A DNA stretch of 64,000 bases from Candidatus Pacearchaeota archaeon (GTDB lineage Archaea > Nanobdellota > Nanobdellia > Pacearchaeales > GW2011-AR1), in the NCBI GenBank assembly GCA_050303855.1, contig JBNLCO010000010.1:124093-188092 (forward strand). Direction: 5' to 3'. Position 1 is the first letter of the stretch, and each line of letters begins with the position of its first letter. The notes beneath the pieces are model-generated. The model was not told the DNA's origin, did not search any database, and worked only from the letters and a program-made list of their open reading frames with translations. Shown here one piece after another: positions 12,932 through 52,104 of the stretch. The translations under genes were made by a program, and so were the position numbers.

Positions 12932-12936
12932 TTAAA

Positions 12937-14290: not shown

Positions 14291-14291
14291 A

Positions 14292-15158: not shown

Positions 15159-15159
15159 A

Positions 15160-15522: not shown

Positions 15523-15523
15523 A

Positions 15524-15742: not shown

Positions 15743-15743
15743 A

Positions 15744-28694: not shown

Positions 28695-29279
28695 ATGGAA
28701 GATCAAGAAAGTAAAGTTTATTTTTCGATTGGGGAGAGTATAAATGCAAAAAAATCTTTTTATAGTCGCCCAAAAGATCTTGTTGATATTTCAAACAAAA
28801 TTTATGAGTCTTTAAATAAAGGTCAAAAAATACTTGTTTTTGGGAATGGAGGTAGTGCGGCAGATGCACAACACATTGCAGGAGAGTTAGTTGGAAGGTT
28901 TAAGAAAGAACGTAAAGCTTTAGCAGCAATGGCTTTAACCACAGATACATCCGTAATAACATCATTATCTAATGATTATGATTATTCAAAGGTATTCGAG
29001 AGGCAAATTGAAGCATTTGCTAGGGAAGGAGATATTTTATGGGGAATTTCAACCTCAGGAAACTCGGAAAACGTTATTAAAGGTCTTGAAAAAGGAAGAG
29101 AAATAGGCACTTATAATTTTTCTATGACTGGTAAAGATGGAGGCATAGTAAAGAAATTAAGTGATTTTAATATAAATATTGATTCTAAAAACACTCCAAG
29201 AATTCAGGAAGCACATCAATTGGCGTACCATATTATTTGCGAATTGGTTGAAGATAAAATATATCATAATAATCTTTAA
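28695..29279 (+). CDS. gmhA: SIS-domain sedoheptulose-7-phosphate isomerase (GmhA-like)
   Basis: 194 aa, ...LVFGNGGSAADAQHIAGELVGRF...LTTDTSVITSLSNDYDYSKVFERQIEA...GDILWGISTSGNSENV...; GGAGGT lies 8 nt upstream of the ATG. Confidence 0.85.
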   Translation: MEDQESKVYFSIGESINAKKSFYSRPKDLVDISNKIYESLNKGQKILVFGNGGSAADAQHIAGELVGRFKKERKALAAMALTTDTSVITSLSNDYDYSKVFERQIEAFAREGDILWGISTSGNSENVIKGLEKGREIGTYNFSMTGKDGGIVKKLSDFNINIDSKNTPRIQEAHQLAYHIICELVEDKIYHNNL

Positions 29280-29305: not shown

Positions 29306-30286
29306 ATGGTAAGAAATCTTATAACAGGCACTACAGGGATGGTGGGTTCTCATTTGGCAGAATTTCTTTTGGACAAAGGGGAAGAAGTTTATGGAACACG
29401 TCGTTGGCGAAGTAGGATGGATAATTGTAGAGGATTTGAGGACAAAATAAATTGGGTGAATATGGAATTAATTGACGCCCATTCTGTTAGAAATGCTATT
29501 GAAAGTGTAAGACCTGATGTGATCTATCATCTTGCTGCACAAAGCTATGTTGTTGATTCAAAAGATGAGCCTGTAGCCACAATGGAAATTAACGCCCATG
29601 GAACTGCTCATATTCTTGAAACCGTGAAGGAAATGAAGAAAAGAGATGGGTACAACCCTGTTATTCATGTTTGTAGTAGTAGTGAAGTTTATGGGCAGGT
29701 GAATCCGGACGAAGTTCCAATAAAAGAAACAAACCAATATCGACCGGCCTCTCCTTATGCGATAGGAAAGCTAGGAGCAGATATGCTTGCTAGGTGGTAT
29801 TTTGAAGAATATGATCTGAAGACGATACGTACAAGAATGTTTACTCATACAGGGCCAAGAAGAGGGGATGTTTTTGTAGTTTCAGCTTTTGCCAAACAAA
29901 TTGCAAAAATTGAGAAAGGATTACAAAAACCAAAATTAAAAGTAGGTAATCTAGAATCTGTTAGGACTTTTGCAGATGTTAGAGATACTGTGCATGCATA
30001 CTATCTCTTAACTAAGCATTGTAAGCCTGGAGAAGTCTATAACATAGGAGGAAATAGAACAATGAAGATTGGAGAGATGTTGGATATCCTTTTAAGCTAC
30101 TCTCCAATGAAAGATAAAATAGAAGTTGAAGTGGATCCGAATCTTCTAAGAAAAACTGATGTAACATATCAAATACCCGACACATCTAAGTTCAAAAAAG
30201 AAACCGGATGGGATAGCCCAATTCCTCTTGAGAAGACTTTAGAAGACACCCTAGACTATTGGAGAGGGGAATTTAAGAATGAGTAA
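29306..30286 (+). CDS. GDP-sugar 4,6-dehydratase family enzyme (Gmd/Rmd/DmhA-like)
   Basis: Contains ITGTTGMVGSHLAEFLL...CSSSEVYG...PASPYAIGKLGAD...FTHTGPRRGDVFVVSAFAKQI (compare the Gmd motif NHESPRRG..FVTRKI). Confidence 0.75.
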   Translation: MVRNLITGTTGMVGSHLAEFLLDKGEEVYGTRRWRSRMDNCRGFEDKINWVNMELIDAHSVRNAIESVRPDVIYHLAAQSYVVDSKDEPVATMEINAHGTAHILETVKEMKKRDGYNPVIHVCSSSEVYGQVNPDEVPIKETNQYRPASPYAIGKLGADMLARWYFEEYDLKTIRTRMFTHTGPRRGDVFVVSAFAKQIAKIEKGLQKPKLKVGNLESVRTFADVRDTVHAYYLLTKHCKPGEVYNIGGNRTMKIGEMLDILLSYSPMKDKIEVEVDPNLLRKTDVTYQIPDTSKFKKETGWDSPIPLEKTLEDTLDYWRGEFKNE

Positions 30287-31349
30287 AGAAGTAAAAGTAA
30301 AATTAAATCATTTTTCTGGGGAATATGAAAATGATGAAGAGTATTATGAGAAATATTGGTCAATTAAAGTTTTGTTAGATAATTTTAATGTAAAAATTGT
30401 AGATAATGTGAAAGAGGCGGATGTTATATTTGAACAGTGTACAAGAGGAAGTAATTATAATTTTTTAAATGAAAAGAATAAAAAAATAGTGCTCTTTTCT
30501 TCAGAAGATCTATATAAAAAAAGAGATATTTTTAATTTAATAGAATCCTTTCTTTATAAGGTAGGATTGGGGGATAAAAAGTGGAAAATTATAGATAAAC
30601 TAGATAGTATTATTCCTTCAAGTATCTCAAGCATTCCATTGAAATATTTTCTACCAAAACATTTGAAGTTTGTGAGAAAAATTTCAGAAGGAAAAATAAA
30701 AAATGCATACGCAATTGTTCAAAATGATATAAAAGGGGAAAACATCTTGATAATTCCCTGTTTCTTGCATGTTTTTTATTATAATTTGAAAGATTTCACA
30801 AAAAAGAAAAAACAGGAATCAAGTAAAAGGAAGAAATTTTGTGCGTTTATTGTATCTAGCAATTCCTCTAGGGAAAGGGTTAAATTTTTTAAGAAATTGT
30901 CCAAATACAAGAAAATTGATTCTTATGGAAGGGTCATGAATAATATGGGAGATAGTATTTTTAATGGCCACTGGAGTGGAACCCACCCGGAGATATATAA
31001 AGACTATAAATTCGTGATTTGTTTTGAGAATAGTTTTACAAAAGAGTATATTTGTGAGAAATTGCCTAGGACTATGCTTTCTGGAGCAATACCTATATTC
31101 AGAGGTGCTCCAAACATTGGAGAATATTTCAATAAAAAATCTTTCATTAATTATGATAATTATGGAAGTTATGAAAATATGATAAAGAAAATTATTGAGT
31201 TGGATAGTGATGATAAAAGATATGAATCATTCCTAAGAGAACCTTGGTTCAAAGATAACAAGATTCCAAAGATATTTAGAGATAAAGAGAAAGAATTAAT
31301 TCAATTTTATACCAAGATTTTTGGACCTCCAAAGAGAAAATTAAAATGA
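30279..31349 (+). CDS. GT10-like (alpha-1,3-fucosyltransferase family) glycosyltransferase
   Basis: Contains ...KKFCAFIVSSNSSRERVKFFKKLSKYKKIDSYGRVMNN...YKDYKFVICFENSFTKEYICEKLPRTMLSGAIPIF...; this matches the GT10 YKF.L.FENS....Y.TEK motif. Confidence 0.7.
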   Translation: MSKEVKVKLNHFSGEYENDEEYYEKYWSIKVLLDNFNVKIVDNVKEADVIFEQCTRGSNYNFLNEKNKKIVLFSSEDLYKKRDIFNLIESFLYKVGLGDKKWKIIDKLDSIIPSSISSIPLKYFLPKHLKFVRKISEGKIKNAYAIVQNDIKGENILIIPCFLHVFYYNLKDFTKKKKQESSKRKKFCAFIVSSNSSRERVKFFKKLSKYKKIDSYGRVMNNMGDSIFNGHWSGTHPEIYKDYKFVICFENSFTKEYICEKLPRTMLSGAIPIFRGAPNIGEYFNKKSFINYDNYGSYENMIKKIIELDSDDKRYESFLREPWFKDNKIPKIFRDKEKELIQFYTKIFGPPKRKLK

Positions 31350-32002
31350 ACAATATTTTTTATGGAATACTTTCTGTAGGGTTTGACATCGATCAAACAA
31401 TGTACGCAAAAAATAGTGAAATAGACTTAATTATTCAAGATGAAATTGCGAGGAAGATTCTTGAAATAAAACCTTCTTTCAATAATCTTGAATCAGCAAA
31501 AGAATTTTCTGAAAGAAGATATTCTGAATTAGGGAGCCGAACAAGTGTGTTAGAAGAGGTTGGCTATAAAAATGCTCAAGAAATCTTGTACGGATGCATT
31601 TCAAGTGATAAAACAATAAACCCTCTCCAGAAAGACGAAAGGCTTCAGGAAATGATTTCAAGATTGGGACATAAATATGATCTTTTTTTAATAACTAATA
31701 ATTCGGAGGATATTGCGACTAAAAAATTAGATCGATTAGGTGTTGACAAGTCTTTATTTAACCTAAAATTTTATGGAGACACATTACCTGGAATAAAAAA
31801 ATCTGATGGTTCTTTGTTCAAATATTTCCTAAGTAGGTCCAAACATTCCCCTGAAAACCACATATATGTCGGAGATAGCCTTAATGCAGACATAATCCCT
31901 TCTAAAAAGCTAGGTTTCAAAACAATTTGTGTAGGAAATCACTTTCTTGAAGCGAATTATTCTGTTAAAGAAATTTATGATATAGAAAATCTTCTTCTAT
32001 AA
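31346..32002 (+). CDS. HAD-superfamily hydrolase/phosphatase
   Basis: N-terminal nucleophile motif GFDIDQT and C-terminal ...YVGDSLNADI... Confidence 0.7.
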   Translation: MNNIFYGILSVGFDIDQTMYAKNSEIDLIIQDEIARKILEIKPSFNNLESAKEFSERRYSELGSRTSVLEEVGYKNAQEILYGCISSDKTINPLQKDERLQEMISRLGHKYDLFLITNNSEDIATKKLDRLGVDKSLFNLKFYGDTLPGIKKSDGSLFKYFLSRSKHSPENHIYVGDSLNADIIPSKKLGFKTICVGNHFLEANYSVKEIYDIENLLL

Positions 32003-32033: not shown

Positions 32034-32041
32034 TTTTAAAG
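32034..32041 (+). promoter_or_regulatory. TATA-like box (TTTTAAAG) about 25 nt upstream of the ATG at 32062
   Basis: Same geometry as the other promoters in the window. Confidence 0.4.
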
Positions 32042-32061: not shown

Positions 32062-33849
32062 ATGAAGTTAGCAGATTATGTTATTGATTATTTTGGAGAT
32101 AAGGGAGTGAAGGATATATTTGAGGTCTATGGTGCTGCGAATGGTGATTTGATTGATGCTTTTACGAGAACAGATAAAACAAGATATGTTGCTATAATGC
32201 ACGAACAAGCTGCAGGGTTTGCTACAGAATGTTATTCTAAGATCAGCGGTAAGCCAGGTGTTGCGATAGCCACAAGTGGCCCTGGAGGCCAGAATTTTGT
32301 GACTCCAATTGCAAATTGTTATTATGATTCTGTTCCGGCAATTTTTATAACAGGTCAGGTAAACTCCAGATTTTTAAGGCCTGATGAAAGTATAAGACAG
32401 AGAGGATTCCAAGAAACCCCTATTGCAGAAATTGTTGCTCCCATAACAAAATATTCTAAAATGATTACAGACCCAAGCACAATAAAACATGAACTTGAAA
32501 AAGCATGGTATATTTCCCAAGAAGGAAGACCAGGCCCAATTCTTCTTGATCTTCCGATAGATATTCAAAAAGCGGAAGTAGATCCGTCAAAACTATTTGG
32601 GTTTAATTCAGAAACTTATAAAACCAATTTTAATATGGAACAGGTTAATAACCAGATAGACCACTATCTTGAAGACTTGTCCCGTGCTGAAAGACCAGTT
32701 ATTCTTGTTGGAGGAGGAGTAAGACCTTCAGGAGGAATAGAAAAACTTCTGAGTTTGGGAGAGAAATTAAAAATTCCGATGTTCCCCACATGGAATTCAT
32801 TAGATATTGTTACTTCTGATTACAATTACTATGGAGGAAGGGTTGGAACTTATGGCGGAAAAGGAAGAAACTTTGGTTTGCAGAACTCCGATTTAGTTTT
32901 GGCTTTGGGAAGCAGAATTTCTGGAAGACTTTATGGAAGCCAGACAAAGGCTTTCTTAAGAGATGCAAAGAAATATGTAGTAGATATTGATAAAGCTAAC
33001 TTACAACAAATATTCCAAGAAGTTCCCTTTGACGAGAACATTTTTTGTGACGCGAAAACTTTTATAGAAAGTTTAGATAAAAAGTTGGAAGGTGTTCCTA
33101 AGAAAGATTTCTCTTCATGGACAAGTAAAGTTATGGGTTGGAGAAACAAGTATGACCCTGTAAAGAAAGAATTTTTTGAGGCTAATGAGAATGCAAACCC
33201 CTATGCTTTTTTTAGAACACTTTCTCAAGAAATGAAATCTGGAGATATCCTTGTGGGAGACTGTGGGGGAAATATTGTTGTTGCTAGTCACGCTTTTGAA
33301 ACAAAGAAAGGGCAAAGATTCATTACAAATAATGGAAACTCCCCTATGGGATTTTCATTTTCAGGAGCCATGGGGGCCTACCTTGCTGCAAATGAAGGCC
33401 AAAATGTAGTTTGCACGATTGGAGATGGAGGTTTCAATATGAATATCCAAGAACTACAAACTTTAAAGAATTATGATCTAAATTTCAAGACATTCATAAT
33501 TAACAATGGAATTTATGGTATCACTAAAGCATTCCAAGAAAAGAAGTTTGAGGGTAGGGCTGAAGCATGTGGTCCAAAAGGCTATGTTCCTCCTAATTTT
33601 ATGGCCATATGTGATGCTTACGGAATTAAAACCGAATCTATAAAAGGAAATGATATTGATAGCATGAGAGAGAAAATTGGAGATGTTTTGAATTCAAAAG
33701 GTCCTGTTGTGTGTGATGTAAGTTGTCCAGACTGGCATACTTACGAACCAACAGTTTTTGGATCAGTCCCAATCGAAGAAATGCACCCTCAGTTGCCTGA
33801 AGAAGAATTCAGAGAAAATATGATTATAAAACCTTGGAAAAAGAAATAA
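32062..33849 (+). CDS. thiamine-diphosphate-dependent enzyme, acetolactate-synthase-large-subunit-like (YerE-like candidate)
   Basis: 595 aa, ...HEQAAGFATECYSKISGKPGVAIATSGPGGQNFVTPIANCYYDSVPAIFITGQV...IGDGGFNMNIQELQTL... (ThDP-binding GDG..N motif). Confidence 0.8.
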   Translation: MKLADYVIDYFGDKGVKDIFEVYGAANGDLIDAFTRTDKTRYVAIMHEQAAGFATECYSKISGKPGVAIATSGPGGQNFVTPIANCYYDSVPAIFITGQVNSRFLRPDESIRQRGFQETPIAEIVAPITKYSKMITDPSTIKHELEKAWYISQEGRPGPILLDLPIDIQKAEVDPSKLFGFNSETYKTNFNMEQVNNQIDHYLEDLSRAERPVILVGGGVRPSGGIEKLLSLGEKLKIPMFPTWNSLDIVTSDYNYYGGRVGTYGGKGRNFGLQNSDLVLALGSRISGRLYGSQTKAFLRDAKKYVVDIDKANLQQIFQEVPFDENIFCDAKTFIESLDKKLEGVPKKDFSSWTSKVMGWRNKYDPVKKEFFEANENANPYAFFRTLSQEMKSGDILVGDCGGNIVVASHAFETKKGQRFITNNGNSPMGFSFSGAMGAYLAANEGQNVVCTIGDGGFNMNIQELQTLKNYDLNFKTFIINNGIYGITKAFQEKKFEGRAEACGPKGYVPPNFMAICDAYGIKTESIKGNDIDSMREKIGDVLNSKGPVVCDVSCPDWHTYEPTVFGSVPIEEMHPQLPEEEFRENMIIKPWKKK

Positions 33850-34416
33850 TTAAATTAATATTTTCTCTAATTCGTTTATAAATTTCTTTGAACCTTTACG
33901 AACTATTTTTTTATCTAAATAATTTTCTTCGGTATTGAGAACTAAATAGGAAACAAAATCAACCCCTGGATATTTGAAGTCAAGGTCTATATCTTCCCAG
34001 TACTTTGCTGTTTTATCCCAAACAGATACGTCTGAAGGATCTGAGATAAGTCCATCTGAAGGGGGCCTAGATTTCATTCTTTTCTTTGCTTCAGCCTCAG
34101 AACAAACACATTCTACAACAATTACATTCTTTCCTGCACCCGAAGCTACACCATAAATCTGTTGTCTTCTAAAGGTATGTCTATTTACGCTATCGATTAT
34201 TACCCCTTTCCCTTTGGTTAAATAATCCATTGCAGTCCGATCAATAAGCCTTAAAGTTTCTTCTTGTTTCTTTGGCATTTTTTTTAGTCCTAAATTACGT
34301 CTTACTTCGTTTTGAGAAATATATTCATAATTTTGGAGGCCTTTAGCCAATTTAGCAGAAGCACTAGTTTTACCTGTACCGGGGAAACCAGTCATCAAAA
34401 TGAGGTAATTTTCCAT
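33850..34416 (-). CDS. P-loop kinase-like ATP-binding protein (AAA_33-like)
   Basis: The internal ATG at 34416 (MENYLILMTGFPGTGKTSAS...) is preferred because it avoids overlap with the upstream SDR gene and places the Walker A motif at the N-terminus. Confidence 0.65.
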   Translation of the reverse strand: MENYLILMTGFPGTGKTSASAKLAKGLQNYEYISQNEVRRNLGLKKMPKKQEETLRLIDRTAMDYLTKGKGVIIDSVNRHTFRRQQIYGVASGAGKNVIVVECVCSEAEAKKRMKSRPPSDGLISDPSDVSVWDKTAKYWEDIDLDFKYPGVDFVSYLVLNTEENYLDKKIVRKGSKKFINELEKILI

Positions 34417-34438
34417 ATAACCCCAATTTTTATTTAAT

Positions 34439-35128
34439 TTAAATAGATTTATGTCTTTGTTTAGAATGTTTTCTTCCATCTAAAATGAGTTCAGATTTTT
34501 TTTCTTTGTATGCAGCAAATATTTCTTCTGAAACATATTTTGGATCCATGGAGTTTTCTCTACCAGGTCGAGTTCTTATTCTAGTTGGATAAACTCCCAT
34601 CACATGTATTCCGTTTTCAATTGCTTCCAAATTTAAGCTATCTGTGAAACCCTTAAGCCCGTATTTGCATGCTGAAGCCACGCTACGAAACTTTTTGCTT
34701 TCAAGGCCCATTATTGAGTTAATATTTATGATTGTTCCAGAGTTCTTCTTTAAAAAAAGAGGATAAATTTCCTTAGATAATTTTATTGGAGCATATAGAT
34801 TTGTTTCGAGTAATTCGTCTACTGTTTCTCTGGATATTTTATCTAAGGGTAAACCAGGACAAAAAACCCCTGCATTATTTACTAAAATTGACAAGTCTTT
34901 TTTCTCTGCAATGTTTGCCAAGTCCTTAATAGTCTTCTCGGATCTTAAATCTCCATAAACCACTTCCACCTTTGACCCGTATTTTAGTATTTCTCTCTGA
35001 GAATCATTTAAGCTAGTTTTATCCCTTCCATGGATTATTAAATTGTAACCTTCTCTTGCAAAAGTTAAAGCTAATTCCTTTCCAAGACCTTTGCTAGAAC
35101 CAGTTATCAGAACAGATTCTTTTTTCAT
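34439..35128 (-). CDS. short-chain dehydrogenase/reductase (classical SDR)
   Basis: Contains VLITGSSKGLGKELAL...NNAG... Confidence 0.8.
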   Translation of the reverse strand: MKKESVLITGSSKGLGKELALTFAREGYNLIIHGRDKTSLNDSQREILKYGSKVEVVYGDLRSEKTIKDLANIAEKKDLSILVNNAGVFCPGLPLDKISRETVDELLETNLYAPIKLSKEIYPLFLKKNSGTIININSIMGLESKKFRSVASACKYGLKGFTDSLNLEAIENGIHVMGVYPTRIRTRPGRENSMDPKYVSEEIFAAYKEKKSELILDGRKHSKQRHKSI

Positions 35129-35132
35129 TTTT

Positions 35133-36044
35133 TTAATTCGAAGAATTTTTTGAATACCAATCCAAAGTTTTTACAATACCTTCTTCAAGCGGGACTTTTT
35201 GAGACCACCCAATTTCATTTGCTTTGGTACAATCTAAGGATAGATTCATCTTAATCGTAGGTTTTGTTGTATCATGCTCAATTTTCAAATTCTTTCCGGA
35301 GGCATTAATGATCTTCTTTGTTAAGTCATTAACTGGTACTTGCTCTCCAGATCCAACATTATAAACCCCATCAAGTTCTTTTTCAAGAGCAATTTCCACA
35401 AAATCTACAAAATCAGAAACATACAAGAAATCTCTTTTTTCTTTTCCATCTCCCCAAATTACAATGCTTTCTCCGTCTGGAGTATTAGTAACTTCATTAA
35501 TTTTTGCTGCAAAAACATGAGAAGTAGCCAAATCAAAATTATCGTTAGGTCCGTAAATATTGGAGTGTCTCATCACAGTATGTTTTGTTCTTCCCAATCC
35601 AGAATAAAAATTGCACATATTTTCAAGATAAATCTTTGTACCTCCTCCACCTGAATATTTTACATTTGGAGAAGTGGGATCTGTTTCCTTATGGGGTTTA
35701 TCGCTTGAAGGGTAAACATTTGTACAGCTTGGAAATATAAACTGTTTAACATTATTTTCAAAAGCACTTCTTAACAAAAGAGAATTCATTACTGCATTAT
35801 CGGTTACATGAATATAAGGCCTCTCTATTATATCTTTAACCCCTGTACTCGTAGCAGCCATTTGAATTATAACGTCTTGACCTTTTACTACCCTTTCAAC
35901 GTCTTCTTTTCTAGTTAAATCGGCATATACATCTGATTTATTTCTAAATCCAACTCCTGTAACATCATATTTATCTTTTAGTCTTTCATATATGTTACTT
36001 CCTAAGAATCCTGTTGCTCCAGTTATTAACACTTTCTTTTTCAT
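35133..36044 (-). CDS. NAD-dependent nucleotide-sugar epimerase/reductase (extended SDR)
   Basis: Contains KVLITGATGFLGSNIYERL... Confidence 0.78.
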   Translation of the reverse strand: MKKKVLITGATGFLGSNIYERLKDKYDVTGVGFRNKSDVYADLTRKEDVERVVKGQDVIIQMAATSTGVKDIIERPYIHVTDNAVMNSLLLRSAFENNVKQFIFPSCTNVYPSSDKPHKETDPTSPNVKYSGGGGTKIYLENMCNFYSGLGRTKHTVMRHSNIYGPNDNFDLATSHVFAAKINEVTNTPDGESIVIWGDGKEKRDFLYVSDFVDFVEIALEKELDGVYNVGSGEQVPVNDLTKKIINASGKNLKIEHDTTKPTIKMNLSLDCTKANEIGWSQKVPLEEGIVKTLDWYSKNSSN

Positions 36045-36081: not shown

Positions 36082-37062
36082 TCATTCAAAGATATTATAT
36101 CTTTTATTTACAATATCTTTATTTTCTTTATACCAATCCATTGTTCTCCGAACTCCCTCTTCTAGAGATACTTTTGGATTCCATCCAAGAGACTTTGCTC
36201 TTGATACATCCATTAACCTTATTTTATCTCCTCTTGGCATAGAAGGATCCCATTTTATGGAGGGTTTTCCTTCAATGTTATTTACAATTATATTTGCTAA
36301 TTCTTTTATGCTCTTTCTTTCCCCTGATCCAAGATTTAAAGGGTAGTCTGGGCCTGGAGCCTTTTCTAAAGCCACAAGCATTCCTTCAGCAACATCCTCT
36401 GAATAAATGAAATCTCTTATTGGACTTCCATCTCCTCCTACTTTAAGGGGATTTTCTCCATCAACAGCCCTTTTTATCAATGAAGGTATTACCATTGCGT
36501 TATTCACATCAAAGTTATCAAAAGGCCCGTAGACATTTGCAGGTCTTACTATTGCTGTTTTATCCCACCCATGTTGAATTTTATATGCCCTTGCTTGTAA
36601 TTCACCAGATCTCTTTGCATAACCCCCAAACAAATCATTCTCGGAAGGAAGCGTTTTGAAAACGTCATCCTCTCTCAAAATTTCGGCAGGTTGATAAACA
36701 CCTATTGTGCTTGTAAACAAGAATCTTTCTGTCCCCTCTTTTCTAGCAGCTTCCATCAAATTTGTATTAAATTGGAGAACAGGAACAAGAAAATTAGCTG
36801 GTTTTTCCAAGGTCATTTTTGGAGAACCTTTTATTCCAAGAAGATTAAAAACATAATCCTGTCCTTCGCAAGCAATTTCACAGTTGTGATAATTGGTTAG
36901 ATCAAGTTTCAAATATTCTGAATTGGGATTTGCCCTTGAAGGATCATCCATTGAAACAACTCTTACATTTGCACCTTCCTCAAGAAGTCTATTTACTAGA
37001 GGCTTTCCAATAAGTCCGGTTCCCCCTGCGACAAGAACGTTTTTTCCCTCATAAAAACCCAT
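36082..37062 (-). CDS. NAD-dependent nucleotide-sugar epimerase/dehydratase (extended SDR)
   Basis: Contains NVLVAGGTGLIGKPLVNRLL...GGYAKRSGE...; first gene of the minus-strand sub-operon 37062 to 33850. Confidence 0.78.
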   Translation of the reverse strand: MGFYEGKNVLVAGGTGLIGKPLVNRLLEEGANVRVVSMDDPSRANPNSEYLKLDLTNYHNCEIACEGQDYVFNLLGIKGSPKMTLEKPANFLVPVLQFNTNLMEAARKEGTERFLFTSTIGVYQPAEILREDDVFKTLPSENDLFGGYAKRSGELQARAYKIQHGWDKTAIVRPANVYGPFDNFDVNNAMVIPSLIKRAVDGENPLKVGGDGSPIRDFIYSEDVAEGMLVALEKAPGPDYPLNLGSGERKSIKELANIIVNNIEGKPSIKWDPSMPRGDKIRLMDVSRAKSLGWNPKVSLEEGVRRTMDWYKENKDIVNKRYNIFE

Positions 37063-37173: not shown

Positions 37174-38304
37174 ATGGGAATTTCTTTTGGAGATTTGAGA
37201 GTCAGTAAGGAGTCTAGAAAACATCTTGAAGACTGTCTCAATAATAATATGATTTCTGGAGGAGATAAAGTGAAAATCTTGGAGGATTCTTGGGGAAAAC
37301 TTTTTGGATATAAATATAATGTTGCTATGGGTTCTGGAACAGATGCAGATATGGCTGCTGCAATGACTCTTTATGATACAGTGGAAGCCAAACCAGGTGA
37401 TGAGGTTATCGTTCCTGCTCTTGCATTTGCAGCCGTAGGGAATAGTGTAAGAGCTGCAGGTTTTACACCTAAATTTGTTGACATAGAAAGAGAAACATTA
37501 AACATCAACCCTGATTTGATTGAAGAAAAAATAACTCCAAAAACAAAGGCCATAATGGCAGTCCATACAATGGGAAAACCAAATGAGATGGACAAAATAA
37601 CTCAAATTGCAAACAAGTATAACCTAAGGGTTTTAGAAGATTGTTGTGAATCTCATGGGGGAGAATATAAGGGGAAGTTTTTAGGTAGCTTTGGGGATGC
37701 ATCTGCATTTAGTTTTTATGTTGCACACATTGTTTCTTGTGGTGATGGAGGCATGCTTTCAACAAACTCTGAAGAGATAAGCGATTTAGCCGATTCAGTA
37801 AAACACCACGGAAGAAAACCTAGAACAATTTATTTTGATCATCCAAGATTTGGTATGAATTTTAGGATGAATGCCTTGACAGCTTCCATAGGCATCCCCG
37901 AAATACAAAATTTTTGGAAGATTTTTGATAAAAGAAAAGGCAATTTGAATTATTTACTGGATTCAACAAAAGACCTTCAGGATTTTGCTTATTTTGTTAA
38001 GGAGGAACCTCATGAGGTTGTCTCTCCTCACGCTTTTAGTATAACTCTTAAAAATCCGGATCACGATTTCAAAGGATTGTATGCATTCTTAGAAAAAAAT
38101 GATATAGAATGTAAAAGAAACTTCGGGAGTATGCCAACACAGCATAAAGCTTTTGAATATCTTGGATACAAGAAAGGTGAATTTCCTGAAGCAGAGTATG
38201 TTGGAGATAATGGGTTGCATTTTGGAATCCATCAATTCTTAGAAAAGAGTGATTTAGATTATGCTTCAGAAAAAATCCACGAATATTTTAAAAAATTTAA
38301 ATAA
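37174..38304 (+). CDS. DegT/DnrJ/EryC1-family PLP/PMP enzyme with His in place of the Schiff-base Lys (ColD-like sugar 3-dehydratase candidate)
   Basis: 376 aa. The motif region is ...DASAFSFYVAHIVSCGDGGM... In aminotransferases of this family the aligned position (SF...K....GEGG) is Lys; here it is His185 (codon CAC at 37726-37728). Confidence 0.7.
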   Translation: MGISFGDLRVSKESRKHLEDCLNNNMISGGDKVKILEDSWGKLFGYKYNVAMGSGTDADMAAAMTLYDTVEAKPGDEVIVPALAFAAVGNSVRAAGFTPKFVDIERETLNINPDLIEEKITPKTKAIMAVHTMGKPNEMDKITQIANKYNLRVLEDCCESHGGEYKGKFLGSFGDASAFSFYVAHIVSCGDGGMLSTNSEEISDLADSVKHHGRKPRTIYFDHPRFGMNFRMNALTASIGIPEIQNFWKIFDKRKGNLNYLLDSTKDLQDFAYFVKEEPHEVVSPHAFSITLKNPDHDFKGLYAFLEKNDIECKRNFGSMPTQHKAFEYLGYKKGEFPEAEYVGDNGLHFGIHQFLEKSDLDYASEKIHEYFKKFK

Positions 38305-38310: not shown

Positions 38311-39168
38311 TTATTTTTTAGAATCTAAAGATTGAATATAGTTCTTTATTTCATTCAAATTGTCTTCGGATATTTTGTAGAAAAGGTTTTCTTCGGGAAA
38401 ACTTCCAGATCTTATTTCGTTTACATAACTAGACAAACCTTTCTTCATTTCACTTCCAACATCTGAGAATTGTTTTACAAACTTAGCTTTTATTCCGCCT
38501 AAACCAACCACATCGTTAACTATTGCCAAGATACCGTCTACGTTTTTTCCAGCCCCGATTCCGTAAACAGGAATGTTCAAAGATTTTGCGATATATCCTG
38601 CAGGTTCATTTGGAACAGCTTCCAAAAGTATTGCGCAAGCTCCCGCGTCCTGTAATGCTTTTGAATCATTATAGAGGGTTTTGAATCCGTCTAAACTTTT
38701 TGATTGTACAACCCCCATTAGATCTGTTGATTGGGGTGTATATCCTATATGCCCTATTGTCGCTATCCCAGCATCTTTCAAGGCCTTTACTCTTTGAGTT
38801 ACTCTTTCTCCCCCTTCAAGCTTAACTGCATCAACACCTGCTTCTTTCATAAATCTTAATGCATTGAAAGTTGCATTTTCATTAGAAATTTGGTAAGAAC
38901 CTAAAGGCATATCCCCCACAATAAAAGTATTTGGAGCTCCTCTACGGACTGCTTTTGTTAACATGATCATCTCATCCATTGTTACTGGAATAGTATTTTC
39001 ATAACCTAGAAGATTATTTCCTGCAGAATCTCCAACAAGGATCATATCCACTCCAGACTCTTCAGCTATTCTTGCTGTTTGAAAATCATAAGAAGTTATC
39101 CATGTGACTTTTTCCCCTTTTTTTTTCATCTTTACAAGATCTCCGAGGGTTTTTCTCTTTCCTTCCAT
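38311..39168 (-). CDS. panB: 3-methyl-2-oxobutanoate hydroxymethyltransferase (PanB family)
   Basis: Contains ...KVTWITSYDFQTARIAEESGVDMILVGDSAGNNLLGYENTIPVTMDEMIMLTKAVRRGAPNTFIVGDMPLGSYQ... Confidence 0.8.
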   Translation of the reverse strand: MEGKRKTLGDLVKMKKKGEKVTWITSYDFQTARIAEESGVDMILVGDSAGNNLLGYENTIPVTMDEMIMLTKAVRRGAPNTFIVGDMPLGSYQISNENATFNALRFMKEAGVDAVKLEGGERVTQRVKALKDAGIATIGHIGYTPQSTDLMGVVQSKSLDGFKTLYNDSKALQDAGACAILLEAVPNEPAGYIAKSLNIPVYGIGAGKNVDGILAIVNDVVGLGGIKAKFVKQFSDVGSEMKKGLSSYVNEIRSGSFPEENLFYKISEDNLNEIKNYIQSLDSKK

Positions 39169-39394: not shown

Positions 39395-41440
39395 ATGAAA
39401 GCATTGATACTTGCAGGAGGATTTGGTACCCGACTTCAAGGGGTTGTTAAAGATGTTCCAAAACCAATGGCCTCTATTGCGGGAAAACCTTTTTTGGAGC
39501 ATCAGATACGTTATTTGAAAAGACAAGGAATTAACGAATTTATCTTGGGAGTTCATTATAAATCAGATGTCATAAAATCTTATTTTGGCAACGGTATGAG
39601 GCAAGATGTAAGCATAACTTATTCTGAAGAGGATTCTCCTCTTGGAACAGGGGGAGCAATAAAACTCGCGCAGAAATTCATTGACGGGCCATTTTTAGTT
39701 TTGAATGGGGACTCGTATACTGATTTGGATCTGGGCAAATTTATGAGATTCCATGAAAAAAATAATTCTGTTGCAAGCATGGTCTTGCAAAAAATGGAAA
39801 AGGATAATTCCCACTATGGAAATGTTGAATTAGAAGGGGATACAATAAAGAGATATTCCGAAAAAAAATCAGTTGGCAAAGGACTGTCCAATTCAGGAAT
39901 CTATTTATTTGATCAAGAGATATTTGACTACATTCCTGGATCTAAAAAGATTTCTTTGGAAGAAAGAGTGTTTCCTGAACTGGTAAAGAAGGGTGCTATT
40001 TCTGGATTTGTCAACAAAGGTTATTTTGTCGATATCGGAAGACCCGAGACCTATCTTCAATTTAAAAAAGATTTTATTGAGAAATTGCAATCTTCAAAAG
40101 ACATTATTTTAAGAGATGCTATAAAAAAGATGTATGAAAATGGTTCAGACATATTGTTTATGGTTAATGAAGAGAAAGAATTTCAAGGTTTGCTAACAGA
40201 TGGAATTATTAAAAGATACCTAATAAGAGGGGGAGAATTTGAAGCAGGAGTTGATGAAGCCATGATAGAAAAACCAGAAAGGATTGCTACAATAAAAGAC
40301 AGTGAGGATAAAATAAGAGGTTTCTTAAAAGAAGGGGTCAAGAATCTTCCAATACTGGACGAACAAGGAAAAATATACGATATTCGATTTAGAACCGAAG
40401 AGGTAAAAGGAGAAGAATATCCAACCATTAGAGGTAAAACTCCTTTGAGAATAAGTTTTGCAGGAGGCGGTACAGATATGCCCTATTTTTTTGAGAAATA
40501 CGGAGGGGCTGTAATAAGCACAACTATTGATAAGTATTGCAACATTACTGCAAAAAAAAGAGGGGATTCCAAAATCGTAATTAATTCGGATATTTTAGAG
40601 GAGGAAGTGATTTTGGATGCCGGGAATTTAAAATATGATAGAAGTAAATTTGATCTAGTAAAATCAGTATATAATCTTGTAAACCCGGGGTGTGGTGTTG
40701 ATCTCCATTTGAATAATGACGTACCTCCAGGAAGAGGTCTTGGTTCATCTGCATCATTTGCAGTTCTTTTAACTAAAATTTTGGGCAAGCTAAAAGGGAG
40801 TAATTTGAGTGATGAGGAAGTTGCAGAATTTGCTTATAGAGCAGAAGTTGAAGAATTGGGAATAAGAGGAGGCAAGCAAGATCAATACGCTGCAGTATTT
40901 GGAGGATTTAATTGGATGGAATTTGAAAATGGAAATAGAAAAATAATGACATCCCTTAGAATAAAAGAAGATACTTTGAATGAATTGAAAGATCATTTAA
41001 CTTTATGCTACACTGGCAAAGAACATGAATCAATCCATCAACAGAAGTTATTGGAAGACAAATTTAAAAAAGAGAACCAGAGTGCAATTGAAAGGCTAAA
41101 AAGAATGAAACTTAATGCACGAGAAATAAAGAATTATCTTCTATCTCCGACCCCCGATTTTCAAAGGATAGGCGAGATAACCCATAAAATCTGGACAGAT
41201 AAAAAGAAGACTTCTTCGAAAGTAACCAGCAAAGTTATTGAAAACCTTTATGAAGTGGGAATGACTAATGGATCATATGGAGGTAAGCTTTTAGGTTCTG
41301 GTGGGGGAGGCTACTTGTTATTTTTCCATCCTCCAGAAAAAAGGAACAAATTAGAGAGAGGATTATCTCAGGAAGGTGGAGAAATCATGAACTTCAATTT
41401 TACTGAAGATGGTGCCAAGATATGGGTTCCGAACAAATAA
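39395..41440 (+). CDS. tri-domain fusion: sugar-1-phosphate nucleotidyltransferase (HddC/ManC-like) + CBS pair + GHMP sugar kinase (HddA-like)
   Basis: N-terminus MKALILAGGFGTRLQ...KPM. The middle has a CBS-like segment (...LLTDGIIKRYL...NLPILDEQGKIYDIRF). The C-terminal half has RGKTPLRISFAGGGTDMPYFFEKYGGAVISTTIDKY...PPGRGLGSSASFAV (GHMP motif). Confidence 0.8.
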   Translation: MKALILAGGFGTRLQGVVKDVPKPMASIAGKPFLEHQIRYLKRQGINEFILGVHYKSDVIKSYFGNGMRQDVSITYSEEDSPLGTGGAIKLAQKFIDGPFLVLNGDSYTDLDLGKFMRFHEKNNSVASMVLQKMEKDNSHYGNVELEGDTIKRYSEKKSVGKGLSNSGIYLFDQEIFDYIPGSKKISLEERVFPELVKKGAISGFVNKGYFVDIGRPETYLQFKKDFIEKLQSSKDIILRDAIKKMYENGSDILFMVNEEKEFQGLLTDGIIKRYLIRGGEFEAGVDEAMIEKPERIATIKDSEDKIRGFLKEGVKNLPILDEQGKIYDIRFRTEEVKGEEYPTIRGKTPLRISFAGGGTDMPYFFEKYGGAVISTTIDKYCNITAKKRGDSKIVINSDILEEEVILDAGNLKYDRSKFDLVKSVYNLVNPGCGVDLHLNNDVPPGRGLGSSASFAVLLTKILGKLKGSNLSDEEVAEFAYRAEVEELGIRGGKQDQYAAVFGGFNWMEFENGNRKIMTSLRIKEDTLNELKDHLTLCYTGKEHESIHQQKLLEDKFKKENQSAIERLKRMKLNAREIKNYLLSPTPDFQRIGEITHKIWTDKKKTSSKVTSKVIENLYEVGMTNGSYGGKLLGSGGGGYLLFFHPPEKRNKLERGLSQEGGEIMNFNFTEDGAKIWVPNK

Positions 41441-41441
41441 A

Positions 41442-47585: not shown

Positions 47586-48980
47586 CTACCCTCTATTTCT
47601 TCTCCGAGAATAAATTATACCCACAAAATAAATTAGTCTGCTTGCTATCGTAGCGAAACAAGCTCCAAGTACTGCTTGAAACATTCCAGGGGGACCAAAG
47701 AAGCCATGATTTAAACCATAAGTTATTCCGAAATAGTTAAACCCAATATTAAAAATTGTACTTACGATTAGAAGCTTTGCAATTACACTTGTTTTCTTTT
47801 GTGAAATCATATAGTTATCGTATATTCCTGAAATCGGAAGTAAGAAAATTATAGCCGCTAGAAGTTTTAGGATAGGAACGGCTGTCAGATATTCTGAACC
47901 ATAAGCAATTTTAACAACATAATAAGCGATAAAATAAGTTATTATTGCAGATAAAAATGCGATTAGGAAAGTTATATTTCTAGATTTCTTAAATAATCTT
48001 TCTAGAGATCTACCTTCAAGTTTAGCAAATAAAGGGAATAGTGCTGCAGCAGTAAAACCGATTATTGCTGTGGCAGAACCCACCAAACTAAATGCTGCCC
48101 CATAATATGCTATAAATTCTTCTGAAACAAAATGTCCAAGCATAAGAGTATCAATATATCCAAAAAACACTCCCGAAAGGGCTGTGACCGTTAAAGGGAG
48201 AAGGAATTTCTTTACTTCTTTTACTTCTTGTTTATCTAATTTTCCAGCTTTCCCTTTTACGAAAGAGACTTTCTTCCTTGCCATGAGGGCAAATATGAAG
48301 AGACTAATTGCATAACAAATCGTTAAAGAAAGTAAAACAAGTGCTACAACGGTTCCATTTGATAAACTTGTCTTTAGCAAGAACAAAATAGTCAAAGGAA
48401 CAATTGTCAATCTTAGGGTCTGAAATATTATTTCCTTTACAAGAGGCATCTTGAAATTATTTGTTGCTTTAAAAGACTGCTCAAAGAAATTTAGGAATCC
48501 TACAATTGGTATATAAAGGCCTCCTACCAGCAAAGCATAGAATATTGGTTTGTTATAATATCCATTTGCAACAAAATAAGCACTTGCTAGGAGAACTAAG
48601 GAGCACACTGTGGTTAAAACAAATTTCCATCTTAATAAGGTTCTGAAATATTTTTTAGCTTTTTCTAGATCTTTTCTTCCAAGAACTTTAGAAATAAACG
48701 TGACAACGCCTGTTGATATCCCAAAATCAGAAAATGCAGAAAACAAAACAATTGTGGATAGTGCAAGTGAATAAAGGCCCATTCTCTCTGGCATAAGTAG
48801 TCTTGCAACGATTATTGTGAAAAAAAGTGATCCAAACTTAATTGTCAAATTTTCTGCTAATTGGTAACTAGAATTCTTTATAGCTTGTCCAGTGTTTCCT
48901 GAAAAATCTCTCTTCTTAAAACGCCTGAAAACATTTCTCGCATCTCCTTCTTCCTTTTCTAAAAAATCATCCATGAACAA
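47586..48980 (-). CDS. MOP-superfamily oligosaccharide flippase (Wzx-like polysaccharide biosynthesis protein)
   Basis: 464 aa with a 12-14-TM-like profile; position at the head of the minus-strand GT sub-operon. Confidence 0.7.
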   Translation of the reverse strand: MFMDDFLEKEEGDARNVFRRFKKRDFSGNTGQAIKNSSYQLAENLTIKFGSLFFTIIVARLLMPERMGLYSLALSTIVLFSAFSDFGISTGVVTFISKVLGRKDLEKAKKYFRTLLRWKFVLTTVCSLVLLASAYFVANGYYNKPIFYALLVGGLYIPIVGFLNFFEQSFKATNNFKMPLVKEIIFQTLRLTIVPLTILFLLKTSLSNGTVVALVLLSLTICYAISLFIFALMARKKVSFVKGKAGKLDKQEVKEVKKFLLPLTVTALSGVFFGYIDTLMLGHFVSEEFIAYYGAAFSLVGSATAIIGFTAAALFPLFAKLEGRSLERLFKKSRNITFLIAFLSAIITYFIAYYVVKIAYGSEYLTAVPILKLLAAIIFLLPISGIYDNYMISQKKTSVIAKLLIVSTIFNIGFNYFGITYGLNHGFFGPPGMFQAVLGACFATIASRLIYFVGIIYSRRRNRG

Positions 48981-51891: not shown

Positions 51892-51944
51892 ATAAATTTC
51901 AGGATTTAAACCATTATAAAAGGTTGTAACCTCTTAAGAATAAA

Positions 51945-52020: not shown

Positions 52021-52104
52021 CAATTGTTCTCAGAACAAGAAAAGGAGATTTAAATGTTATGCAAGGAACTAAATCTTTAATAATAAGGCTTTAGATGCGA
52101 AATA

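What the first reader, a model, noticed from the sequence alone, without database searches (positions are those of the whole stretch)
32062..33849. An acetolactate-synthase-like ThDP enzyme embedded in the sugar operons: a candidate YerE-type branched-chain-sugar synthase
This 595-aa ThDP enzyme has ALS-large-subunit architecture. It sits with its own promoter box between the GDP-sugar module and a convergent set of kinase, SDR and epimerase genes. No small ALS subunit or ilv genes are nearby.

The only well-known role I can recall for such an enzyme in a glycan cluster is that of YerE in Yersinia pseudotuberculosis. YerE transfers a C2 unit from pyruvate onto a 3,6-dideoxy-4-keto-hexose to make yersiniose. 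The predicted Gmd-like and ColD-like enzymes here would generate exactly a 3,6-dideoxy-4-keto intermediate. The neighbouring SDR (34439-35128) could reduce the resulting acetyl branch.
Basis: inference. Interest (0 to 1): 0.6.

Follow-up and report, generated by a model that had tools for sequence, protein, structure and literature searches.

The report
YerE-like sugar-branching enzyme in archaeon
A gene that looks like acetolactate synthase, in the surface-sugar gene cluster of a tiny DPANN archaeon, is most likely a YerE-type enzyme that attaches a carbon side-branch to an unusual seven-carbon sugar, which would be the first such branched sugar proposed for Archaea.

Summary
ORF 32062-33849(+) encodes a 595-aa ThDP enzyme with all three acetolactate-synthase domains. 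It has its own TATA-like box and no ilv or small-subunit genes nearby.

The protein fails the curated AHAS cutoff. Its closest solved relatives, by sequence and by predicted fold, are the YerE-like enzymes JanthE and PpYerE. It groups with them, away from AHAS and Gcl, with 100% bootstrap.

It belongs to a tight family (55-78% identity) found in DPANN archaea, CPR bacteria, Nitrospira, SAR11 and Prochlorococcus. The family always sits in nucleotide-sugar clusters. All 57 DegT-family neighbours grouped with the window's DegT carry the His that marks ColD/E1 3-dehydratases.

- The host is a DPANN archaeon, and the cluster adjoins AglB.
- The "Gmd-like" enzyme is closest to GDP-heptose 4,6-dehydratase, so the acceptor is probably GDP-3,6-dideoxy-4-keto-heptose.
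- The proposed reductase (34439-35128) lacks the catalytic Tyr.

PanB-like or aminotransferase genes often flank the enzyme, which hints that the donor may not be pyruvate. No activity or product has been shown.

The parts
32062..33849 (+). YerE-like ThDP-dependent carboligase (595 aa) with acetolactate-synthase-type three-domain architecture
   Evidence: Pfam TPP_N/M/C. Below the AHAS cutoff. Best PDB matches are JanthE 8rph (2e-91) and PpYerE 5ahk (6e-80). NJ clade with both at 100% bootstrap. Foldseek top hit is JanthE, TM 0.89.
32034..32040 (+). TATA-like box TTTTAAA, 28 nt upstream of the ATG
   Evidence: Sequence read. The same box lies at -28 to -31 for other operon-leading genes, and the element is enriched over random windows.
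29306..30286 (+).
   Evidence: Best PDB hit is 7us5, GDP-heptose 4,6-dehydratase (2e-88, 300 bits), against 145 bits for GDP-mannose dehydratases. Canonical YxxxK is present.
37174..38304 (+). ColD/E1-type PMP/PLP-dependent sugar 3-dehydratase (DegT family)
   Evidence: Best PDB hits are E1 3bcx (4e-47) and ColD 2gms (2e-42). His185 ('FYVAHIV') aligns with E1 His220, where aminotransferases have the Schiff-base Lys. At 376 aa it is ColD-sized. No E3-reductase-type domain was reported in the Pfam scans of the ORFs from 15.7 to 61.2 kb.
28695..29279 (+). GmhA, sedoheptulose-7-phosphate isomerase
   Evidence: NCBIfam TIGR00441, 201 bits against a cutoff of 209.
39395..41440 (+). HddC-HddA fusion: heptose-1-phosphate guanylyltransferase plus heptose-7-phosphate kinase
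   Evidence: Best NCBIfam hits are HddC for the N-terminal half and HddA for the C-terminal half. Both are below the equivalog cutoffs. Pfam NTP_transferase plus GHMP kinase.
31346..32002 (+). HAD-family phosphatase directly upstream; role unproven (possibly the heptose bisphosphate phosphatase)
   Evidence: Pfam HAD_2. Conserved next to the ThDP gene only in the window-like archaea and in Woesearchaeota.
33850..34479 (-). P-loop kinase (AAA_33, KTI12/PSTK-like), substrate unknown
   Evidence: Pfam. Only weak PDB hits, to PSTK at 2e-5. Co-occurs with the ThDP gene in DPANN loci only.
34439..35128 (-). Classical SDR lacking the catalytic Tyr (Ala at that position)
   Evidence: 'SVASACK' aligns with 'QANYAASK' of 2hq1. 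Family alignment.
35133..36044 (-). GDP-fucose-synthase-like extended SDR, non-canonical (no YxxxK)
   Evidence: NCBIfam and PDB Fcl-like. Alignment to E. coli Fcl.
36082..37062 (-). Second GDP-fucose-synthase-like extended SDR, non-canonical Tyr position
38311..39168 (-). PanB (ketopantoate hydroxymethyltransferase) homologue; possible supplier of a hydroxymethylated 2-oxoacid donor
   Evidence: Passes the TIGR00222 cutoff (253 bits against 208). PanB genes lie next to the ThDP gene in 6 other taxa. Absent from the 78%-identical relative's cluster.
30279..31349 (+). GT10-family (fucosyltransferase-like) glycosyltransferase; candidate transferase for a GDP-6-deoxy sugar
   Evidence: Pfam Glyco_transf_10.
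21674..24415 (+). AglB/STT3 oligosaccharyltransferase, marking the cluster as archaeal N-glycosylation
   Evidence: Pfam STT3. WWDYG at residue 603.
47586..48980 (-). Wzx-like flippase at the far end of the glycan cluster
   Evidence: Pfam Polysacc_synt and MatE.

Best explanation
The gene encodes a YerE-like, FAD-containing ThDP carboligase that works in nucleotide-sugar biosynthesis, not in branched-chain amino-acid synthesis.

Proposed pathway:
1. [quoted passage not shown]
2. The DmhA-like 4,6-dehydratase (29306) makes GDP-6-deoxy-4-keto-heptose.
3. The ColD-type 3-dehydratase (37174) makes GDP-3,6-dideoxy-4-keto-heptose.
4. The ThDP enzyme decarboxylates a 2-oxoacid. The donor could be pyruvate, as for YerE, or a PanB-made hydroxymethylated 2-oxoacid. 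The resulting acyl-carbanion adds to the C-4 ketone, giving a 4-C-acyl-branched sugar with a tertiary alcohol.
5. The branch carbonyl is then probably reduced. The sugar is transferred by a cluster glycosyltransferase onto the dolichol-linked glycan, which AglB attaches to surface proteins.

Shown by sequence, fold and context: the family assignments, the clustering with YerE-like enzymes, and the family-wide link to His-type 3-dehydratases.

Inferred: the acceptor, the donor, the branch reduction and the fate of the sugar.
For: - Not an AHAS equivalog: TIGR00118 scores 365 bits against a cutoff of 538.
- Closest solved proteins are the two structurally characterised YerE-like enzymes, JanthE (311 bits) and PpYerE (273 bits). 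Plant AHAS scores 242 and E. coli IlvB 213. True AHASs score 435-465 bits to each other.
- NJ tree (27 sequences, 566 columns, 200 bootstraps): the window family, Methanoperedens homologues, JanthE and PpYerE form a clade at 100%, excluding Gcl, AHAS and PoxB.
- AlphaFold model (pLDDT 84): Foldseek top hits are JanthE at TM 0.89, then PpYerE and AHAS at about 0.83.
- Residues shared with YerE-likes but not with AHAS: PKD becomes P(I/M/L)D, GMHG becomes GxYG, and the acceptor Trp (QW) becomes Phe.
- In 83 related loci the gene always lies among sugar genes: SDR epimerase/dehydratases in 69 loci, DegT in 56, HddA-like kinase in 46 and nucleotidyltransferase in 39.
- All 57 DegT-family proteins grouped with the window's own (its own gene plus 56 from related loci, 13 taxa) have His at the Lys position.
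- The window's own DegT has that His and its best hits are E1 and ColD.
- The 4,6-dehydratase is closest to C. jejuni GDP-heptose 4,6-dehydratase. The route from GDP-heptose to GDP-3,6-dideoxy-4-keto-heptose by such an enzyme pair is experimentally established in C. jejuni (PMC10440746).
- YerE-like enzymes using functionalised 2-oxoacids made by a clustered enzyme are documented for ErwE and ErwI (PMC9306805).
- No IlvC/D/E/H/N/M homologues occur in the window or in the 83 loci. The host is a DPANN archaeon. Many family members are in CPR and DPANN organisms, which from general knowledge largely lack amino-acid biosynthesis.
Against: - No enzymology and no glycan structure exist for any member of this subfamily.
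- Identity to characterised YerE-likes is only 31-33%, against 27-30% to AHAS. The tree is NJ with few reference sequences and lacks Y. pseudotuberculosis YerE itself.
- In loci with full flanks outside Nitrospira, only 9 of 18 have a His-type DegT within 10 kb. The 3-deoxy acceptor is therefore not universal, or the gene lies elsewhere.
- The heptose dehydratase, ColD-like gene, Fcl-like genes and GT10 could by themselves make a plain 3,6-dideoxyheptose or a colitose-like sugar, with no need for the ThDP enzyme.
- No clear YerF-type reductase is present. The adjacent classical SDR lacks the catalytic Tyr, and both Fcl-like SDRs lack a canonical YxxxK.
- PanB is a bona fide PanB by score and is absent from the closest relative's cluster.
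- The roles of the kinase and the HAD protein are unexplained.
Confidence: 0.68

Rival explanations
1. It is a genuine biosynthetic acetolactate/acetohydroxyacid synthase. It would supply 2-ketoisovalerate for valine, leucine or pantoate (with the nearby PanB), and it merely happens to sit in the glycan cluster.
For: - The best NCBIfam hits are all AHAS large-subunit models, with E-values down to 5e-109.
- It has the same three-domain architecture with an FAD-type middle domain.
- A true PanB, whose substrate derives from acetolactate, is 4.5 kb away and directly adjacent in 6 other taxa.
Against: - It is below every AHAS curated cutoff.
- It is excluded from the AHAS clade at 100% bootstrap.
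- AHAS-specific residues are lost: PKD Lys, GMHG His, QW Trp, RFDDR and GQHQMW.
- No small subunit, IlvC or IlvD occurs in the window or in 83 loci.
- Neighbourhoods in 20 taxa are nucleotide-sugar genes.
- Hosts include CPR and DPANN organisms with minimal metabolism.
Confidence: 0.06
2. It is a ThDP enzyme of the glycan pathway, but not a C-4 brancher of a 3,6-dideoxy-4-keto sugar. It might decarboxylate or ligate a small 2-oxoacid (derived from PanB or an aminotransferase) to make an acyloin, aldehyde or amine substituent. That substituent would later be attached to the sugar through O or N. Alternatively it might branch a different keto-sugar, such as a 4-keto-6-deoxy or 3-keto sugar.
For: - The most frequent immediate neighbours family-wide are a class I/II (aspartate-aminotransferase-like) aminotransferase (43 of 53 full loci) and B12-radical-SAM enzymes. 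These act on small molecules or side chains.
- Half of the non-Nitrospira loci lack a His-type DegT within 10 kb.
- The kinase and HAD pair next to the gene is unexplained.
- AsnB-type amidotransferase and methyltransferase genes in the cluster suggest further decorations.
Against: - The only established role of this clade (YerE, ErwE, MMAR_2332) is C-branching of NDP-3,6-dideoxy-4-keto sugars (PMC9306805, PMC12247030).
- All 57 grouped DegT proteins are 3-dehydratase-type, which is hard to explain otherwise.
- An aminotransferase or PanB that supplies a 2-oxoacid donor fits the YerE-like 'unifying scheme' equally well.
Confidence: 0.2
3. The gene is a decayed or inactive paralogue carried along by horizontal transfer of the cluster. 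The cluster would make only plain 3,6-dideoxyheptose or fucose-type sugars.
For: - DmhA-like, ColD-like, Fcl-like and GT10 genes suffice for a C. jejuni-type 3,6-dideoxyheptose.
- Several SDRs in the convergent operon have non-canonical catalytic motifs.
Against: - The ORF is intact. Across two domains of life 131 columns are invariant in a 24-sequence family alignment.
- The invariant residues include the catalytic Glu (HEQ), and the GDGG...NN ThDP motif is kept.
- The predicted fold is confident.
- It has its own promoter-like box.
- The gene is kept at 78% identity with the same gene order in a relative.
Confidence: 0.04

Closest known systems
YerE of Yersinia pseudotuberculosis and its characterised relatives (PpYerE 5AHK, JanthE 8RPH, ErwE, MMAR_2332): ThDP/FAD carboligases that C-branch NDP-3,6-dideoxy-4-keto sugars
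   Same: - Three-domain decarboxylase-superfamily ThDP enzyme with an FAD-type middle domain and no small subunit.
- Same clade in the tree, and the best sequence and fold matches.
- Shared non-AHAS residues: P(M/I)D, GxYG, and Phe in place of the AHAS Trp.
- Sits in a glycan cluster that encodes a 4,6-dehydratase and a His-type 3-dehydratase, which together give a 3,6-dideoxy-4-keto acceptor.
   Different: - Only 31-33% identical. It forms its own tight subfamily with private motifs: NNGNSPMGF in place of SGGLG(S/T)MGF, and DCGGN in place of VGxxQMW.
- The predicted sugar is a GDP-heptose, not CDP-glucose-derived.
- 3-Deoxygenation is ColD-type (no E3 reductase gene seen), not E1/E3.
- The host is an archaeon and the glycan is probably N-linked through AglB, not an LPS O-antigen.
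- The frequent partners are PanB, a class I/II aminotransferase and B12-radical-SAM enzymes, not a pyruvate aldolase.
- Activity is untested.
Acetohydroxyacid synthase large subunit (IlvB/IlvG/IlvI; plant and yeast AHAS)
   Same: Same fold and domain order, the ThDP motif GDG...NN, the catalytic Glu in HEQ, the FAD-binding region, and pyruvate-type 2-oxoacid decarboxylation chemistry.
   Different: - Below the curated cutoffs and outside the AHAS clade.
- Lacks the AHAS-specific Lys, His, Trp, RFDDR and GQHQMW residues.
- No regulatory subunit and no ilv context.
- Lies in sugar clusters of organisms with reduced metabolism.
Campylobacter jejuni HS:5/HS:11 GDP-3,6-dideoxy-heptose pathway (4,6-dehydratase, PLP C3-dehydratase, epimerase, C4-reductase; PMC10440746)
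   Same: GmhA, HddA and HddC-type activation, a close homologue of the GDP-heptose 4,6-dehydratase (2e-88), and a ColD-type C3-dehydratase. Together they predict the same intermediate, GDP-3,6-dideoxy-4-keto-heptose.
   Different: - C. jejuni reduces the 4-keto group directly and has no ThDP enzyme.
- The window has no cupin-type epimerase, and its Fcl-like SDRs are non-canonical.
- Here the intermediate is proposed to be intercepted for C-branching.

Membership tests
YerE-like ThDP carboligases (sugar C-branching) | Decarboxylase-superfamily ThDP enzyme with PYR, middle (FAD) and PP domains, catalytic Glu and a GDG...NN motif | tested here: met
   Pfam N, M and C domains are full length. HEQ and GDGG...NN are conserved.
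YerE-like ThDP carboligases (sugar C-branching) | Groups with characterised YerE-like enzymes rather than with AHAS, Gcl or PoxB | tested here: met
   NJ clade with PpYerE and JanthE at 100% bootstrap. phmmer gives 311 and 273 bits against at most 242 for AHAS. Foldseek top hit is JanthE, TM 0.89. Caveat: YpYerE itself is not in the tree.
YerE-like ThDP carboligases (sugar C-branching) | Encoded in an NDP-sugar cluster with a 4,6-dehydratase and a 3-dehydratase that produce a 3,6-dideoxy-4-keto sugar | tested here: met
   DmhA-like dehydratase. DegT with His185 at the Lys position. Family-wide, 57 of 57 grouped DegT proteins are His-type.
YerE-like ThDP carboligases (sugar C-branching) | Partner NAD(P)H ketoreductase (YerF/ErwF-like) for the acyl branch | tested here: inconclusive
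   Three SDRs are adjacent, but 34439 has Ala at the catalytic Tyr position, and 35133 and 36082 lack YxxxK. No YerF sequence was available for comparison.
YerE-like ThDP carboligases (sugar C-branching) | Catalyses addition of a decarboxylated 2-oxoacid to a ketone (an NDP-4-keto sugar), giving a tertiary alcohol | not testable with these tools
   Requires an enzyme assay.
Acetohydroxyacid synthase large subunit (IlvB/G/I) | Scores above the curated equivalog cutoff | tested here: not met
   TIGR00118 scores 365 bits against a cutoff of 538. All other listed AHAS large-subunit models are also below their cutoffs.
Acetohydroxyacid synthase large subunit (IlvB/G/I) | Regulatory small subunit (IlvN/H/M) and ilvC or ilvD in the neighbourhood | tested here: not met
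   phmmer found no hits in the window or in 83 related loci.
Acetohydroxyacid synthase large subunit (IlvB/G/I) | AHAS active-site signature: PKD Lys, GMHG, RFDDR, GQHQMW, and the acceptor-selecting Trp in QW | tested here: not met
   The window has PID, GTYG, RISGR, DCGGNIVV and AF at these positions.
ColD/E1 sugar 3-dehydratases (for the neighbour at 37174-38304) | DegT fold with His replacing the internal-aldimine Lys | tested here: met
   'FYVAHIV' aligns with E1 'FYPAHHI'. The E1 H220K mutant 3bb8 shows K at that position.
GDP-heptose 4,6-dehydratase (for the neighbour at 29306-30286) | Closer to characterised GDP-heptose 4,6-dehydratase than to GDP-mannose 4,6-dehydratase, with heptose activation genes present | tested here: met
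   7us5 scores 300 bits against 145 for Gmd. GmhA and an HddC-HddA fusion are in the cluster. Substrate specificity itself is untested.

The most novel reading that the evidence does not exclude
This is the founding archaeal example of an undescribed, horizontally mobile subfamily of YerE-like enzymes. The subfamily occurs in DPANN archaea, CPR bacteria, Nitrospira, SAR11 and Prochlorococcus.

Its members would build previously unknown C-branched 3,6-dideoxy-heptoses (or related sugars) for cell-surface glycans. Their acyl donors would not be pyruvate. They would be tailor-made 2-oxoacids supplied by a dedicated PanB (hydroxymethylated 2-oxoacids such as ketopantoate or 4-hydroxy-2-oxobutanoate), or by a class I/II aminotransferase with or without B12-radical-SAM methylases.

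In the window, the product would be the first branched-chain sugar in an archaeal N-glycan.
Probability: 0.3. Interest if true: 0.72.

Novelty: new variant of a known kind. Interest (0 to 1): 0.58.

Why it matters
C-branched sugars made by ThDP enzymes are known only from bacterial LPS and a few antibiotics. I found no report of one in Archaea.

If this reading is right, three things follow:
- Some of the smallest known cells (DPANN and CPR) and several globally abundant bacteria (SAR11, Prochlorococcus, Nitrospira) decorate their surfaces with an unknown class of branched deoxy-heptoses. This is relevant to phage and host recognition and to symbiont attachment.
- Thousands of database entries now named 'acetolactate synthase' or 'thiamine pyrophosphate-binding protein' would be re-annotated.
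- Biocatalysis would gain a well-conserved family of ketone-accepting carboligases for chiral tertiary alcohols, possibly with unusual donor scope.

Tried and rejected
- Exact look-up of the window protein's contig failed: nothing on record. The 78% relative was used instead.
- Cluster-member names gave no taxonomy. A SecY search was needed.
- The papers that define JanthE and the survey of more than 200 YerE-like gene clusters (Lanza 2024, Krug 2024) are not held. I therefore could not check whether this subfamily was already listed there.
- A literature search for YerE in archaea returned only noise.
- FAD signature as a discriminator was rejected, because YerE and JanthE bind FAD too.
- The classical SDR at 34439 as the branch reductase is doubtful, since its catalytic Tyr is Ala.
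- PanB as an incidental housekeeping gene is not clearly rejected. It is absent in the closest relative. But it is adjacent to the ThDP gene in six distant taxa, and in three of them it overlaps the ThDP start.
- A column scan for residues separating PanB-associated from aminotransferase-associated enzymes gave no clean determinant.
- The kinase could not be assigned; it has only weak similarity to PSTK and KTI12.
- Y. pseudotuberculosis YerE and ErwE sequences were not obtainable, so the tree uses PpYerE and JanthE as the YerE-like anchors.
Full report
**Observation.** The ORF at 32062-33849(+) is real: 595 aa, ATG start. It carries the three Pfam domains of the acetolactate-synthase-type ThDP enzymes at full length: TPP_enzyme_N, TPP_enzyme_M and TPP_enzyme_C. 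It follows a co-directional HAD gene after a 59-bp spacer. It abuts, stop to stop, a convergent operon of a P-loop kinase, a classical SDR and two GDP-fucose-synthase-like SDRs. The spacer holds TTTTAAA at 32034-32040, 28 nt before the ATG. The same box sits at -28 to -31 in front of other operon-leading genes here. TATA-like elements occur before 21 of 48 gene starts, against 9.4% of random windows. The 'own promoter box' is therefore credible. Pfam or NCBIfam scans of about 65 ORFs of the window, including all those of at least 100 aa from 15.7 to 61.2 kb, found no ilv gene or ACT small subunit. phmmer with E. coli IlvC/D/E/A/M/H/N, run against all window ORFs of at least 60 aa, found none either.

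**Setting.** The window is archaeal. It holds a ribosomal-protein operon, SecY, an EMC3/TMCO1-like insertase, prefoldin and aIF-2B. These are followed by a GT4 phosphosugar transferase and an AglB/STT3 with WWDYG. SecY is about 85% identical to proteins named from Pacearchaeota and Nanoarchaeota, so the host is a DPANN archaeon. From 20.6 to 49 kb the window is one glycan cluster:
- AglB, a methyltransferase and GT1 glycosyltransferases;
- an SDR, GmhA, a 4,6-dehydratase, GT10 and HAD;
- the ThDP enzyme, then kinase, SDR and two Fcl-like SDRs on the minus strand;
- DegT, PanB and an HddC-HddA fusion;
- a methyltransferase, GT2, AsnB, GT1, WecG and a Wzx-like flippase.

A 78%-identical homologue from another archaeal metagenome contig has the same order, but lacks GmhA and PanB in the cluster.

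**AHAS or YerE-like?**
- All AHAS NCBIfam models hit, but below their curated cutoffs: TIGR00118 scores 365 bits against 538.
- Against the PDB the best matches are JanthE (8rph, 311 bits) and the P. protegens protein 5ahk (273 bits). Plant AHAS scores 242, E. coli IlvB 213 and Gcl 153.
- The literature identifies 8rph and 5ahk as the two solved YerE-like, ketone-accepting enzymes (PMC12188165, PMC12247030).
- Genuine AHASs score 435-465 bits to one another.
- An NJ tree (27 sequences, 566 columns, 200 bootstraps) puts the window protein and its family with two Methanoperedens-type homologues (100%), then JanthE (97%), then PpYerE (100%). Gcl, four AHASs and PoxB are excluded.
- An AlphaFold model (pLDDT 84, pTM 0.89) finds JanthE first (TM 0.89), ahead of PpYerE and AHAS at about 0.83.
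- Motif comparison shows loss of AHAS-specific residues: the PKD Lys, the GMHG His, RFDDR, GQHQMW and the acceptor-selecting Trp. Several replacements are shared with YerE-likes: P(I/M)D, GxYG and Phe for Trp. The family also has private motifs, NNGNSPMGF and DCGGN.
- FAD binding does not discriminate, because YerE and JanthE are flavoproteins.

**The family and its neighbours.** The protein belongs to a very large, tight family. More than 120 database clusters are 60-78% identical, and they are named only 'thiamine pyrophosphate-binding protein' or 'acetolactate synthase'. A scan of one genome per species returned 80 loci. They come from Nitrospira (including N. defluvii), Pelagibacteraceae, Prochlorococcus, Terriglobia, Oligoflexia, many CPR phyla, Woese-, Pace- and Nanoarchaeota, and Methanoperedens. 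I clustered all ORFs within 10 kb. Recurrent neighbours were as follows:
- extended SDR epimerase/dehydratases: 69 of 83 loci, 19 taxa;
- DegT-family proteins: 56 loci;
- a class I/II aminotransferase directly adjacent: 54 loci;
- B12-binding radical-SAM enzymes: 50 loci;
- HddA-like GHMP kinases: 46 loci;
- sugar-1-phosphate nucleotidyltransferases: 39 loci.

No locus holds IlvC/D/E/H/N/M homologues. All 57 DegT proteins of the cluster, the window's own included, have His at the Schiff-base Lys position. That His is the signature of the ColD/E1 3-dehydratases. This is the strongest contextual argument that the ThDP enzyme acts after sugar 3-deoxygenation, as YerE does. The caveat is that among 18 non-Nitrospira loci with full flanks, only 9 have such a gene within 10 kb.

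**Which sugar?** The window's DegT (376 aa) hits E1 (3bcx, 4e-47) and ColD (2gms, 2e-42). Its His185 aligns with E1 His220. No E3-type reductase gene is present, so a ColD-type mechanism is more likely. The 'Gmd-like' enzyme is far closer to C. jejuni GDP-D-glycero-D-manno-heptose 4,6-dehydratase (7us5, 2e-88, 300 bits) than to GDP-mannose dehydratases (145 bits). With GmhA and an HddC-HddA fusion in the cluster, the precursor is most likely GDP-heptose. In C. jejuni the same pair of enzymes converts GDP-heptose to GDP-3,6-dideoxy-4-keto-D-threo-heptose (PMC10440746). That compound is the heptose, GDP-linked analogue of YerE's acceptor.

**Which donor?** This is unknown. YerE uses pyruvate. 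ErwE refuses pyruvate and uses 4-hydroxy-2-oxoacids made by a clustered aldolase (PMC9306805). In this family the immediate neighbour is either a class I/II aminotransferase (43 of 53 full loci) or a PanB (4 loci), never both, and 6 loci have neither. PanB genes next to the ThDP gene occur in Prochlorococcus, Pelagibacteraceae, Oligoflexia, Harrisonbacteria, Woesearchaeota and Pacearchaeota. They are 42-68% identical to each other. In three loci the panB reading frame runs into the start of the ThDP gene. They pass the PanB equivalog cutoff. The window has PanB 4.5 kb away with its own TATA box. I infer that these enzymes supply tailor-made 2-oxoacid donors. The inference is weak for this window, because the closest relative lacks PanB in its cluster.

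**Open points.**
- Both Fcl-like SDRs keep the Lys but lack Tyr at K-4. The reductase is therefore unidentified.
- The PSTK/KTI12-like kinase and the HAD phosphatase travel with the ThDP gene only in DPANN loci and are unexplained.
- The dehydratases, Fcl-like enzymes and GT10 could also make an unbranched 3,6-dideoxyheptose in parallel.

**Verdict.** The YerE-type interpretation is supported by every in-silico test available, with three corrections: the host, the sugar and the candidate reductase. It is best filed as a new variant of the YerE-like kind. It is a distinct cross-domain subfamily, here in an archaeal AglB cluster, probably acting on a GDP-heptose. I could not check whether the 2024 survey of YerE-like gene clusters already lists this subfamily. 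Activity, donor, acceptor and product all remain to be shown.

Noticed in passing
window 38311-39168(-); L014 9116-9988, L006 8970-9998, L083 9006-9998, L064 8758-9696, L005 7179-8066, L059 12993-14018: Bona fide PanB homologues lie next to the ThDP gene in six distant taxa, and in three loci they overlap its start. They are 42-68% identical to each other. They never co-occur with the class I/II aminotransferase that flanks the gene elsewhere. This suggests alternative modules for supplying the donor.
   Followed up: partly
window 34439-35128(-), 35133-36044(-), 36082-37062(-): All three SDRs of the convergent operon have non-canonical catalytic motifs. The classical SDR has Ala at the YxxxK Tyr position; the same holds in L001 and L008, while L005 keeps Tyr. 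Both Fcl-like SDRs keep the Lys but lack Tyr at K-4.
   Followed up: partly
L033, L017, L035 and about 40 other Nitrospira loci; L076, L011, L010: One or two B12-binding radical-SAM genes directly flank the ThDP gene. In Nitrospira the order is aminotransferase, rSAM, ThDP, rSAM. This hints at C-methylation of the donor or the branch.
   Followed up: partly
window 33850-34479(-) and 31346-32002(+); L005, L008: A PSTK/KTI12-like P-loop kinase and a HAD phosphatase accompany the ThDP gene only in the window-like archaea and in Woesearchaeota. Their substrate is unknown.
   Followed up: partly
window, upstream of 29306, 32062, 37174, 38311(-), 42352 and 46818(-): TTT(T/A)AAA-type boxes lie at a fixed 28-31 nt before the start codon. 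This is consistent with archaeal promoters driving leaderless or very short-leader mRNAs.
   Followed up: partly
family-wide: The ThDP protein is 60-67% identical between DPANN archaea and bacteria as distant as Oligoflexia, CPR phyla, Nitrospira and SAR11. This implies repeated inter-domain horizontal transfer of the gene, and perhaps of its module.
   Followed up: no
window 51532-63479: Of the twelve ORFs scanned here, eight gave no Pfam hit: 51532, 52105, 53376, 58526, 59534, 60479, 61371 and 62589. They lie beside SecD/F and an RNA polymerase subunit D gene. The short co-directional ORFs at 55312-57315 were not scanned.
   Followed up: no
window 41409-42314(+): A 301-aa ORF inside the glycan cluster has no Pfam or NCBIfam hit. 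It is conserved in the related archaeal contig (L001 18519-19379).
   Followed up: no
window 2000-16000: The ribosomal-protein operon shows strong positive GC skew and AT skew (both about +0.3), that is, a purine-rich coding strand. The glycan cluster shows much weaker skew.
   Followed up: no
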